Source: Octopus sinensis (taxonomy: Eukaryota). Taken from it: 64,000 bases of DNA. Position 1 is the first letter of the stretch. Each line of letters starts with the position of its first letter. The DNA is taken from the NCBI RefSeq assembly GCF_006345805.1, contig NC_043013.1, forward strand, positions 4,960,001 through 5,024,000, given 5' to 3'. The notes under the pieces were generated by a model that searched no databases, was not told the DNA's origin, and was given only the letters and a program-made list of their open reading frames with translations. This document shows, piece by piece, positions 10,411 to 56,639 of this stretch. Both the position numbers and the translations under genes were made by a program.

Positions 10411-11065
10411 AGCGGTTGCTTCCCAACCACACGGTTCCAGAGTGAGTCTCAGTGCGTGGCACCTTGGACAAATGTCTTCTATAGCCTCGGACCGACCAAA
10501 GCCTTGTGAGTGGATTTGGTAGACAGAAACTGAAAGAAGCCCGTCGTGTATATGTATATATATATATATATATATATATATATATATATATATTATATAT
10601 ATATATATATATATATATATATATATGTATATATGTATGTATGTATGTATGTATGTATGTATGTAGTATGTATAAGCCACTATGCATGCCTTCTTCTGTT
10701 TTCTCTCCCTGTTTATTTCCGTGTTCCTTTCTGTTGAAGAGCGTAGGCTCGAAACGTAAAAGACTCTCTCACTTCCCGAGCGTTAAACATCTGTTTGTTG
10801 TTTACGCATCCGTCTTCGTCTTTTTTTTTTTTTGTAAATTCTCTCTCTATATATATATATATAAGTTTGTGTCTGTGTTTATCTCCCCAACATCGCTTGG
10901 CAACCGATGTTGGTGTGTTTACGTCCGCGTAACATAGCACTTCGGCAAATAGTGACCGACAGAATAAGTACAAGGCTTACAAAAAATAAGTCCAGGGTCG
11001 ATTTGTTCGACTAAAGTCGGTGCACCAGCATGGCCGCAGTCAAGTGACTGAAATGATTAAAAGAA
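10411..11065 (+). mobile_element. SINE group B interrupted by a hammerhead-bearing insert in its internal microsatellite
   Basis: The 5' half runs to about 10547 and the 3' half resumes at about 10866. Confidence 0.85.
10672..10850 (+). mobile_element. Short (TA)n-embedded element with degenerate hammerhead (10727-10762)
   Basis: CTTT-CTGTTGA-A-GAGC-GTAG-GCTC-GAAAC-GTA-AAAG. A second copy lies at 54733-54945 on the minus strand. Confidence 0.65.
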
Positions 11066-11529
11066 TAACGTGATTTCACTTGATGAATGGTACAAAAAGG
11101 AGAAAAAAAAACCAAGAAAGGAGAAAAAGGTAGAAATAGCTTAGAAAACAATTAGAAAATAGATTCATTAAACCGTGAGACTATTTACTGCAACGTATTA
11201 AATATAAAAGATGCTTAATTGAAAACTAATTAACAACAACAACGATAATAATAATAATAATAATAATAATAATAATAATAATAATAATAATAAACGGCGG
11301 GAAATTGCTTTTCCTATTCCACAACGTATCAACAAGATTTGCGTATTTTGTTGTTGTTGTTGTTGTTGATCTTGTTTTTGTTTTTGTTGCTTTTGTTGAT
11401 CTTGTTGATTTTGTTTTGTTTTTGTTGATCTTGTTGTTGATCTTGTTGTTGTTCTTTTTGTTGTTTATTTGCAAAAGTCATAATCTTAATGAAGCAAAAA
11501 TTAAAGCAAAACGAAAACGATTATCTTTT

Positions 11530-11917
11530 ATTTGTTCCAGGCATTTAACTGCGGCCATGCTGGGGCACGGCCTTGAAGAACTGTACTCGAATGAATCGAC
11601 AGTGGTTACTTATTTCTTAGTTTAAGCCTGGTAACTGTTCTATCATTCTGTTTTGCCCAACCGCTAGGTTACGGAGACGTAAACACACCGACACCGGTTG
11701 TCAAGCGATGGTGAGGGACAAACACAGCAAACATAGACACAAAAGGCACACACACATATATACACACGCATATACGATGGGCTTCTTTCAGTTTCTGTCA
11801 TAAGGCTTTGATCGGCACAAAGCTATGGTAGAAGACACTTGCCCAAGGTGCCACGCAGTAAGACTGAACCCGGAACCATGTGGTTGGGAAGCAAGTGTCT
11901 TACCGCACAGTCACACC
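11530..11917 (-). mobile_element. SINE group B
   Basis: Homology to the other group B copies. Confidence 0.85.
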
Positions 11918-12287
11918 TTTCTTACAAAAAATATTTAATTGAAGAGTAATTACTAACGATATTGTATTAAAAAAACCGTTGGGGAAATTATTTTTCTCTC
12001 TTACACAATATATCAACAAGATTTGCTTCTTTTTTGGTGGGGGGGGGGGATTTTCTCGTGAAAGTCACGATCTTAATTGAAGCAGAAATTAAAAAAAAAA
12101 TTAATGGAAGAGAATTTTTCTGGTTTTTTTTTCTATTTTTTTTTTCCTCTGGAAGTTGAAATTTCTCATTCGTTCGTGGTTTTATCATTTGTGTGTTAAT
12201 TTATCTAGAAAATTCTTTGATTATCCATTAAACGCTTACATCACTATTCAGGTTGATTTGCTGAGTCACGTGAGTGACACAGATCGG

Positions 12288-12672
12288 GCGGCACTCCGTT
12301 GGTTGCGACGACGAGGGTTCCAGTTGATCCGAATCAACGGAAACAGCCTGCTCGTGAAATTAACGTGTAACTGGCTGAGCAGTCCACAGACACGTGTACC
12401 CTTAACGTAGTTCTCGGGAAGATTCAGCGTGACACAGAGAGTGACAAGGCCGGCCCCTTGAAATACAGGTACAACAGAAACAGGAAGTAAGAGTGAGAGA
12501 AAGTTGTGGTGAAAGAGAACGACAGGGTTCGCCAACATCCCCTGCAGGAGCCTCGTGGAGCTTTGGGTGTTTTTTGCTCAATAAACACTCACAACGCCCG
12601 GTCTGGAAATCGAAATCGCGATCCTATGACCGCGAGTCCTCTGTCCTAACCACTGGGCCATTGCGCCGCCAC
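12288..12672 (-). mobile_element. tRNA-derived SINE group C (head 1 + tail X)
   Basis: Reverse complement of the copy at 36939-37320. Confidence 0.88.
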
Positions 12673-12712
12673 AACATAGATCTAGTCAACAGCTTAACGG
12701 TGAAGAAATTGA

Positions 12713-53286: not shown

Positions 53287-53702
53287 GGCAGCGAGCTGGC
53301 AGAAACATTAGCACGCCGGGTGAAATGCTTAGCGGTATTTTGTCTGCCGTTACGTTCTGAGTTCAAATTCCACCAAGGTCAACTTTGCCTTTCATCCTTT
53401 CGGGGTCGATAAATTAAGTACCAGTTACGCACTGGGGTCGATATAATCGATTTAATACCTATGTCTTTCCTTGTTTGTCCTCTCTGTGTTTAGCCCCTTG
53501 TGGGTAATAAAGAAATAGGTATTTCATCTGCTGCTACATTCTGAGTTCAAATTCCACCAAGGTCAACTTTGCCTTTCATCCTTTCGGGGTTGATTAAATA
53601 AGTACCAGTTACACACTGGGGGTTGATATAATCGACTTAATCCGTTTGTCTGTCCTTGTTTGTCCCCTCTGTGTGTAGCCCCTTGTGGGCAGTAAAGAAA
53701 TA
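53287..53702 (+). mobile_element. SINE group A dimer
   Basis: One head and two bodies, with a degenerate flanking duplication AAGAATAGAAAGGTG / AAGAAAGAAGGGTG. Confidence 0.88.
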
Positions 53703-54498
53703 AGAAAGAAGGGTGACGGAACGCAGAAGGGCGAACGTGATCTATCCATCCATCAAACCACTTAATCTGAACCCCCTCTCCCCCCAAAATAAAGATAGCT
53801 AGACAGTATTATTATAATAAGCATTCATACACAACACAGATTTTGCGACAATCCTTCAAAGGCCTTCAAATCAAAACTAAATATCCGGTTTCTTCCTTTC
53901 ATATCACCTCTCATTTATCTCTTACGTGTTGAGACTCCATGTTGCCAGTTATAATCCGTTGGTCAACAGAAACCTAAGGGATGAAAGTTATGTCAATCAA
54001 CTGAAGCACTAATATGGGTGTGATGCTTAAATCCTCCTTTTTTTTCCAGTAAATAAATATTTACTGCTTTATGTGATCAGACTAGGATGTTCTTTGTTGT
54101 GCTCCTTCACAGAATTTCCCGATTACCGTTACCTTAATCAGTATGAGCTCTCCTTATGTCATCTATCCATAGGATTAAACCTTTAATCTTTTTCTCTTTC
54201 ACTGGTTTTGGTTCGTTAGACCATGACCCTGCTGGGGCATGGCTATGAAGGATTTAGTTTATCAAAGTGACCCTAGTATTGGAATTTGTTTTTTCTCAGT
54301 TTGATATTTATTCTGTCATTCCCTTTTTGCTGATCTTTTAACTTGTCTATGGGGACACAAACAAACCAACACTAGTTATCAAGCCAAGAAGGACAAACAA
54401 TGTCAAACTCACAGCTTCATACACATTTGCAGAAACAATCACATATACACACATGCATATATATATATATAATATATATATATATATATATATCCATC

Positions 54499-54704
54499 CA
54501 GTAATCCCTCGACTATCGTGGGTGTTACATTCCAAGATCCCCTGTGTGGTGAAAATCTGCAAAGTAGAAACAGTGCTGTACTGTATATATATTTTTTCTT
54601 TTTAATATTTTGCATATATTTATTTTATTATAAATGTAAAACAACACCATGGAAGAGTCTACGTAAGCTTAAATAATAAACTGCAATATGGCGACGGATT
54701 ACTG
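54499..54704. mobile_element. pogo/Tigger-like MITE (compact form of 2560-3083)
   Basis: CAGTAATCCCTCGACTAT ... GGCGACGGATTACTG. Confidence 0.75.
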
Positions 54705-54732
54705 TATGTATATATGTATATGTATGTATGTG

Positions 54733-54945
54733 TGTGTGTATGTGTATATATCGTGAGAATTTACAAAAAAACAAAAGTTGAAGATGGGTGTATAAACAAC
54801 AAACAGATGTGTTAGTTTAACACTTGGGAAGTGGTGAGAAAGTATTTTACGTTTCGAGCCTATGCTCTTCGACAGAAAGGAACACAGAAATAAGGGAGAG
54901 AAAACAGAAAAAGGTTTTGTGGCTAGCGATCTGTCATGGTGAATG
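54733..54945 (-). mobile_element. Second copy of the 10672 hammerhead-like element
   Basis: Minus strand CTTT-CTGTCGA-A-GAGC-ATAG-GCTC-GAAAC-GTA-AAAT at 54844-54879. Confidence 0.65.
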
Positions 54946-56639
54946 CACACACACACACACAACACACACACACACACACATATATATATATATATGCACA
55001 CACACATACATGGAAGGTTTCTGCACAGTTTCCATCGACTAAATTCATTCATATGGCATTGGTCAAAAATTACTGTAGAGTGGGATTCAACCTGACACCG
55101 TGGGGTTTGGAAGCAAACTTCTTAACCATGCAGCCATCTGTGTTTAAAAAACACAGAACCACATCTCTTTCTCTCTCTCAATACAGTGATATATATATAT
55201 ATATATATATATATATATATATATATTATATATATATATATACACACACACACATACTTACGTATGTACAATACATACGTGTGTGTATATATATATATAT
55301 CATCATCATTTAATGTCCACCTTCCATGCTAGCATGGGTGGAACAAACTATATATATATATATATATATATATATACACACATATGTGTATATATATTTG
55401 TGTGTGTATAAGTATATATATGCACACACACACATGCATATAGGTATTCTCTCTGACACTGCTCTACTGCATGTAACTTTCTCCACCAGTTAAATTCCAC
55501 TGATGTTCCCTCATCAATGGTTTTCAGAAGCACGCAATGAATTGATTTTGCAATGATCTGGACCATTGATATGTAAATTCTCATTGAATTCTATCAATTT
55601 ATTATATTGATATGTTAATTTTCAACCTATATCTATTGAAAAGCACTTCTTTTCTATATATATATATATATATATATCATCTAGCTGCTGTGTGAACTTT
55701 CAAATGGAAATATAAATTCTATCTTGTAGTATTACTATAAATATACATGCCTACATATGTACATGAGTTTGTATGTGTTTGTAAATAAATAAATATATAT
55801 ATATATATATATAATAATAATATAAATAATATATAAATATATGCATATATACATACATGTACATACCTACGTATATATGTATATATAGATGCGTATATGG
55901 TACAGGACATCAAAAAAACGTCTTCAAAATGAGAAACGAGAACATAAAAAACAAAATCATAGAAAACGAACTTTTTTTCAAACAACAAAAGAAACAAATA
56001 GAGAAACAAGACAGGCAACATAAAGGACGATCCCTTCATCAGTTGGCCCCTGTTTTATCTACTCCATATTTCAAAGGTATATATATATATATATATATAT
56101 GCGCATGTATACGCACACACATATATATGCTTGTGTATGTGAAAGCATGTGATAAAAGTGTTGGATTCGTGGCTCAGTGGTTAAGATGTTTGGTTTACAA
56201 TCATAAAATAGGGAGTTCAATTCCTGGACTTAGTGGTATATTGTGTCCTTCATGTTGCTTCAGTCTGTTTAACTGAAATGAGTACTGACTGGTATTGCTT
56301 CCCCCCCCCCATCCAGCTCTCTTTCTCTCTCTCTCTCTCTCTTATTTCCTTCAGCTATTACATACTCCATGTTCTGCCAGGTCCAGGGTAGGCAGGCCAA
56401 TGTGGAGTGTCTGTGTCTGTTCACCACTACATAGATGCTTAAAACAATTGGCAAAACCTTTGTACTTCCTGTCACTTGTACTTCTTAACCACTTGCAAGT
56501 GACAGCTGTGTTTGTTTAATGCAAGTGTGTATGTATTTGTGTATTTCTGTATGTATGTACATATGTGTGTGTATATACATGTGTGTTTAAGTACATATAT
56601 GTGTGTATTGTGAGACCCACTGTTGTTTCTGTTGACCAC

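What the first reader, a model, noticed from the sequence alone, without database searches (positions are those of the whole stretch)
10672..56080. A guild of microsatellite-dwelling, hammerhead-carrying short elements
Seen: at least four unrelated 180-340 bp non-coding islands sit within TA/CA microsatellites and carry a hammerhead-shaped motif (10672 and its copy 54733, 17433, 19848, 52741). Weaker cases occur at 18918/30950, 22510, 41095 and 55875. Several share an extra A after the CUGANGA box, and several end in a T-rich tail. Inference: many Penelope-type families target (TA)n and leave ribozyme-bearing solo repeats at a density of several per 64 kb, possibly producing small linear or circular RNAs. 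I cannot tell whether this is already catalogued for this genome.
Basis: partly seen in the sequence, partly recalled or inferred. Interest (0 to 1): 0.8.

Follow-up and report, generated by a model that had tools for sequence, protein, structure and literature searches.

The report
Pseudoknotted hammerheads in animal retroelements
The islands are cut-short ends of Penelope-type jumping genes sitting in (TA)n repeats, which is known biology, but three of them belong to about 15,000 genomic copies of a protein-free repeat whose predicted self-cutting RNA is wired in a pseudoknotted order so far reported only from environmental RNA.

Summary
Nine of ten islands are 5'-truncated copies of multi-thousand-copy repeats whose fixed 3' ends abut (TA)n (142 of 159 copies against 8% background); 41095 is single-copy. 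Four families carry type-I minimal hammerheads. Two of them (10672/54733, 52741) run upstream into Neptune-type GIY-YIG/RT frames, and one (19848) has a 473-nt protein-free tandem unit. All of that is published Penelope/retrozyme biology.

The unexpected part lies in the 'weak' cases. 18918/30950 and 55875 belong to two clades (7,205 and 8,047 exact pattern matches; reversed controls 0 and 19) of 690-830-nt tandem units without a PLE reading frame. Their hammerhead blocks stand in the non-circular order site-GAAA-CUGANGA (type SGC), described before only from metatranscriptomes. Four helices covary (92-95% paired, 0 of 500 shuffles). Stem II is completed by a strand upstream of the cleavage site, not by the bases after CUGANGA, a layout outside the six published permutations. 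In clade 2 an ordinary SGC fold is not excluded.

Cleavage and circles are untested; contigs of four guessed-RNA runs join the unit head to tail, a weak hint only. No autonomous parent was found for these units.

The parts
10675..10845 (+). Family A: 5'-truncated 3' end of a Neptune-type PLE; minimal type-I hammerhead 10727-10762 with core CUGUYGA (A6U), extra A, predicted cut after 10758
54753..54945 (-). Second family A copy
17435..17702 (+). Family B: truncated 3' end; type-I hammerhead 17596-17643, palindromic stem III, predicted cut after 17639; parent unresolved
19854..20186 (+). Family C: truncated copy of a 473-nt tandem unit without a long ORF; type-I hammerhead 19901-19959, predicted cut after 19953
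52741..52958 (+). Family D: truncated 3' end of a Neptune-type PLE; minimal hammerhead 52807-52841 with core CCGACGA (U4C)
18919..19148 (+). Clade 1 (subfamily E): truncated copy of a ~790-nt unit with an S-G-C-order hammerhead
18993..19065 (+). Predicted ribozyme: stem II 5' strand 18993-18998, P strand 18999-19005, stem III 19009-19013, cut after 19014, stem I 19015-19020, 4-nt linker, stem II 3' strand 19025-19030, GAAA 19031-19034, P partner 19045-19051, stem I partner 19053-19058, CUGAGGA 19059-19065
30954..31100 (+). Clade 1 (subfamily F); predicted ribozyme 30955-31028, cut after 30976
55893..56079 (-). Clade 2 copy, truncated inside the ribozyme: keeps the GAAA and CUGANGA blocks, lacks the cleavage-site block
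   Evidence: profile match 56079-56024, E 6e-10
22515..22696 (-). Truncated PLE-like repeat (2271 candidates, inverted partners, one ~550-nt partial tandem); family lacks an intact hammerhead core
41095..41320 (.). Single-copy stretch with a hairpin; not part of the guild

Best explanation
The islands are 5'-truncated copies with fixed 3' ends at (TA)n, likely inserted by Penelope-like (Neptune-type) reverse transcriptase/GIY-YIG proteins, and three of them derive from 690-830-nt tandem units without a PLE frame whose RNA is predicted to self-cleave through a pseudoknotted hammerhead in site-GAAA-CUGANGA order. Shown: repeat families, fixed 3' and ragged 5' ends, optional tails, inverted partners, TA flanks, GIY-YIG/RT frames upstream of families A and D, tandem units, four covarying helices. 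Inferred: the PLE protein nicks AT-rich DNA and starts reverse transcription at an internal site of the RNA, and stops early, leaving 150-700-nt stubs. Transcripts through tandem units would be cut once per unit into monomers that could be ligated to circles and copied back by the PLE protein in trans (retrozyme cycle). In the predicted fold a 3-5-nt linker ties stem I to stem II and a fourth helix (P) joins their other strands, as in type SGC, but stem II's 5' strand comes from upstream of the cleavage site.
For: Clade 1: 7,205 exact matches against 0 for the reversed pattern. In a MAFFT alignment of 31 copies, 92% of 736 cells pair, 15 of 24 pairs change on both sides, 0 of 500 shuffles reach it, slid partners give at most 49%. 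Subfamilies E and F, found by BLAST and not by pattern, differ at 28 of 95 columns: none in the invariant core, but at N7 and H17, the two free core positions; by my reading 12 differences fall in paired columns, as 5 compensatory pairs and 2 wobbles. Clade 2: 8,047 matches against 19; 95% paired, 11 of 20 pairs change on both sides, 0 of 500 (23 copies); upstream stem II partner 97.5% paired, score 0.50 (32 copies). A sequence-free descriptor hits the window only at 19059 and 31022, 0 in 200 shuffles, and led to clade 2 independently. Only 7 genome matches have GGC within 2 nt of CUGANGA. Ribozyme spacing is 628-834 nt in 24 of 27 intervals in clade 1 (two intervals counted twice through overlapping loci, one is between different subfamilies), and 760, 789, 796, 833 in clade 2. 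L154 is one unit with ~30-nt terminal redundancy, 762 nt apart. Tails in 5 of 45 E/F loci. Inverted shorter partner at 13 of 40 family C loci. TA at 5' junctions 52 of 126 against 8.2%.
Against: No cleavage, RNA end or circle was observed. How A9 and G10.1 are held together is unexplained: the closing helix I proposed is 84% paired, mostly by G-U, and no better than shuffles in energy (mean z +0.2). In clade 2 the bases after CUGANGA-A can also pair with stem II (74% over 5 pairs, 9 both-side cells; two of those columns are fixed by my pattern), and 21 of 31 clade 1 copies have GGC within 11 nt. The shuffle control ignores relatedness, the structure came from these sequences, and pattern-found rows have an invariant core by construction. 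No PLE frame is contiguous with clade 1 or 2. Families A (A6U) and D (U4C) deviate from the core; changes at A6 lower activity (PMC3088659). A PLE hammerhead was dispensable for insertion in vitro (PMC11167929). Other repeats are also TA-flanked (one control end 47 of 77, the other nine 0-31%), and several element tails themselves begin with TATA.
Confidence: 0.72

Rival explanations
1. The S-G-C motif is an active but ordinary type-SGC hammerhead: G10.1 and stem II come from the bases just after CUGANGA (one extra A in clade 2, 2-5 extra nt in clade 1), and the upstream strand is a competitor or completes only the distal part of a nicked stem II.
For: Clade 2 downstream pairing: 32/32, 32/32, 29/32 and 24/32 at the four core-proximal pairs; GGC after about 5 nt in 21 of 31 clade 1 copies; published SGC keeps this block intact (PMC10085705).
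Against: The upstream strand pairs better and tracks stem II changes (97.5%, 26 both-side cells; 90.7% in clade 1) and is directly followed by the covarying P strand. Subfamilies E, G2 and K lack the downstream GGC. Slid controls of the downstream helix score as high or higher (87.5% at -3).
Confidence: 0.3
2. The S-G-C structure is conserved for another purpose (binding the PLE protein, positioning reverse transcription) and does not cleave; the core boxes are relics.
For: Minimal PLE hammerheads cleave poorly (PMC4209133) or need the protein and are not required for insertion (PMC11167929); the backbone between A9 and G10.1 appears broken; related families have decayed cores (22510).
Against: Both clades, with no significant cross-match of profiles (best E 1.4), keep all three catalytic blocks in register with their helices. 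N7 takes all four letters and H17 is C or A in 31 rows (H is partly fixed by the pattern).
Confidence: 0.15
3. The 690-830-nt units are long pseudo-LTRs or deletion remnants of autonomous PLEs that I did not find, not a self-standing retrozyme class.
For: Same end anatomy as families A and D; only the best 40 hits per search were scored; family B has over 1.5 kb of shared non-coding upstream sequence and no resolved parent.
Against: The tail runs directly into the unit body in dimers and trimers of many subfamilies; the three longer spacings held no PLE frame.
Confidence: 0.2
4. The TA association is a by-product: microsatellites grow from the elements' own TATA-starting ends in a TA-rich genome, without targeting.
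For: Tails of B, C and E begin with TA runs; some other repeats are TA-flanked.
Against: 5' truncation points, which are not element ends, are also enriched: (TA)3 52 of 126 against 8.2%, (TA)6 37 of 126 against 4.1%; (TA)n bias is reported for Neptune and Naiad PLEs (PMC8557442).
Confidence: 0.15

Closest known systems
Minimal type-I hammerheads in PLE pseudo-LTRs (Cervera and de la Pena 2014, PMC4209133; read parts 1-2 of 4)
   Same: [quoted passage not shown]
   Different: Family-wide A6U core in A and U4C in D; octopus-like host not among the genomes named in the parts read.
Neptune/Nematis-type EN+ Penelope-like elements (Craig et al. 2021, PMC8557442, 12 passages; Frangieh et al. 2024, PMC11167929, parts 1-2 of 4)
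   Same: C-terminal GIY-YIG after a CX2-5CxxC linker, 5' truncation, partial tandems, inverted partners, optional tail, (TA)n or AT-rich targets.
   Different: Tail of about 80 nt in C and over 100 nt in B; CA-rich 3' UTR of 2.3-3.2 kb in D; clade not fixed by a tree.
Non-LTR retrozymes of animals (PMC7229834, 12 passages; bioRxiv 10.64898/2026.07.22.740005, parts 1-2 of 5)
   Same: Protein-free tandem units with one hammerhead each, low GC, many lone monomer derivatives, proposed PLE origin; unit lengths up to 972 bp reported.
   Different: Those carry type-I hammerheads and were found with type-I descriptors; clades 1 and 2 carry an S-G-C-order motif that such descriptors miss.
Type-SGC hammerhead / HRIMA-1 (Eckert et al. 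2023, PMC10085705; outline and parts 2-6 of 8, supplements not read)
   Same: Block order site-GAAA-CUGANGA, short linker from stem I to stem II, fourth helix joining the other strands of stems I and II.
   Different: Published examples come from metatranscriptomes, none from genomes of known organisms, and keep CUGANGA joined to stem II (their 'block C', assumed indivisible). Here the stem II strand and the fourth-helix strand lie 5' of the cleavage site, in a genomic retroelement.

Membership tests
EN+ Penelope-like element (families A, D) | RT plus C-terminal GIY-YIG frame upstream of the 3' end | tested here: met
   D: 385-aa frame in L144 (YIDD, GIY-YIG; PF01541 E 0.0045, below the curated cut-off), same frame upstream in L142 and L143. 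A: GIY-YIG part in L141/L005, L023, L027, no Pfam hit, 58% identical to D's; RT part not seen for A.
EN+ Penelope-like element (families A, D) | Fixed 3' end and variable 5' truncation | tested here: met
Neptune clade | CX2-5CxxC linker before the endonuclease | tested here: met
   L141 and L144 frames; shared with Nematis per PMC8557442
Neptune clade | Placement in an RT tree | not tested
   No reference proteins were held; no tree built
EN+ Penelope-like element (families B, C, clades 1 and 2) | Own RT/GIY-YIG frame | tested here: inconclusive
   B: one inverted RT-EN fragment (L146) and one interrupted GIY-YIG remnant (L147), one locus each. C and clades 1, 2: none contiguous in the loci held.
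Minimal type-I PLE hammerhead (A-D) | Stems I and II, both boxes, palindromic short stem III, NUH | tested here: met
   Descriptor passed by 18, 17, 20 and 19 of 30 copies of A, B, C, D; it allows U4C and A6U
Minimal type-I PLE hammerhead (A-D) | Unaltered CUGANGA core | tested here: not met
   Met in B and C; A has U at position 6 in 28 of 28 parsed copies, D has CCGACGA in 24 of 30
Non-LTR retrozyme (C, clades 1 and 2) | Protein-free tandem units with one hammerhead each | tested here: met
   473 nt (L145); 688-834 nt; longest Met-started frame 43-131 aa in 5 units, low-complexity
Non-LTR retrozyme (clades 1 and 2) | Type-I hammerhead | tested here: not met
   Blocks are in S-G-C order
Non-LTR retrozyme | Expressed as self-cleaved monomers and circles | tested here: inconclusive
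   Only contigs of runs guessed to be RNA; head-to-tail joint in 4 of 4 runs, which tandem DNA also gives
Type-SGC hammerhead | Order S-G-C with covarying stems I, II, III | tested here: met
Type-SGC hammerhead | Short stem I-stem II linker and a helix joining the other strands | tested here: met
   4 nt in clade 1, 3-5 nt in clade 2; P helix 87.8% and 93.9% paired with both-side changes
Type-SGC hammerhead (clade 1) | CUGANGA directly followed (0-2 nt) by the stem II strand | tested here: not met
   7 matches genome-wide against 7,205; intact-block descriptor hit 1 of 75 loci, split-block 42 of 75
Type-SGC hammerhead (clade 2) | CUGANGA directly followed (0-2 nt) by the stem II strand | tested here: inconclusive
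   Upstream partner better, downstream partner possible
Hammerhead ribozyme (all) | Self-cleavage after H17 | not testable with these tools
   Needs a transcription assay or raw RNA reads; none were served

The most novel reading that the evidence does not exclude
At least 15,000 genomic copies, in two clades, of protein-free 690-830-nt retrozymes carry a working hammerhead of a seventh topology: S-G-C order with the catalytic strand broken between A9 and G10.1 and stem II completed from upstream. They are expressed, cut to unit length, circularised and mobilised into (TA)n by Neptune-type Penelope proteins. This would be the first non-circularly permuted ribozyme in the genome of a known kind of organism.
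Probability: 0.4. Interest if true: 0.87.

Novelty: new variant of a known kind. Interest (0 to 1): 0.7.

Why it matters
Non-circular permutations of hammerheads were reported only from environmental sequence with no host, and the authors assumed CUGANGA cannot be parted from stem II. If these motifs cleave, they put such a ribozyme in an animal genome at very high copy number with a clear job (processing retroelement RNA). They would also overturn that structural assumption and show that standard descriptors and Rfam miss a large class of animal ribozymes and possibly abundant circular RNAs. Many subfamilies with compensatory changes give a ready series for structure work and for asking how such a permutation evolves. 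The guild as first described is known biology in a new host.

Tried and rejected
Rfam scan: no hammerhead among 141 weak matches, mostly microsatellite-driven miRNA models. HDV-like, twister or pistol reading of 18918/30950: rejected by eye, from recalled consensus features, not by a call. A closing helix between the 5' flank and the bases after A9: not supported by energy. Pattern for other stem I variants: 2 hits that look like tRNA genes, by eye. My first general pattern was one N short and caught 190 deletion variants and minor subfamilies. Long spacings of 1.9-3.5 kb as autonomous parents: no PLE frame; L284 is a longer duplicated segment. PLE frame next to clade 2 in L492: a neighbouring element ending at its own TA run. 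Loose pattern in viral contigs: 80 loci held, 0 pass either S-G-C descriptor. Sequencing runs: no RNA holder listed. Contigs of four guessed-RNA runs cover the 806-nt unit with a head-to-tail joint in 4 of 4 (one 815-nt contig in X1), while the family C unit gave many short pieces and one joint; contigs cannot show ends, strand or level, so this is a weak hint. Earlier scan notes: nothing found. PMC10162972 held nothing on extra helices in 12 passages. Literature searches for this motif in animals or cephalopods found nothing beyond the papers cited; the library lacks most subscription papers and Repbase/Dfam were not searchable.
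Full report
Setting. The window is G000:C17:4960001-5024000 of a 2.72-Gb genome, 38% GC and dense in simple repeats. From recall of its SINE-like repeats I take the host to be an octopus; this was not tested.

Noticed in passing
window 3385-3545 (+): Another high-copy family outside the finding; relatives carry CUGAUGA-A-GGCUG...CAGCC-GAAA (4 hits in the blind 600 kb). Its stem II matches that of clade 1, which suggests, untested, that clade 1 arose from such a type-I motif.
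   Followed up: partly
L045:2872-3171 (-): A third, unrelated sequence fitting the split S-G-C descriptor, with no relative in the DNA held.
   Followed up: no
family A, e.g. window 10731-10737: A6U is fixed across the family while position 7 varies; an unusual natural core variant worth assaying.
   Followed up: partly
L178, L184, L185, L208, L212: Further type-I hammerhead families in the blind sample, some with a CCGAAGA core.
   Followed up: no
L288 and L289 units: Two clade 1 subfamilies each have a 131-codon Met-started, low-complexity frame beginning in or just after the ribozyme; probably due to the CT-rich composition.
   Followed up: partly
window 37700-37770 (+): CUGAAGA...GAAAC motif without a proper stem II; no relative in the DNA held.
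   Followed up: partly
window 36415-36718: About 52 copies of CCCTAA, an interstitial telomere-type array.
   Followed up: no
window 507-2042 and 38511-39060: A 22-nt minisatellite of 70 copies and a 184-nt tandem triplication of a SINE-like part.
   Followed up: no
L028, L035, L039, L276, L455, L471, L540: Members of different families are often stacked in the same (TA)n run.
   Followed up: no
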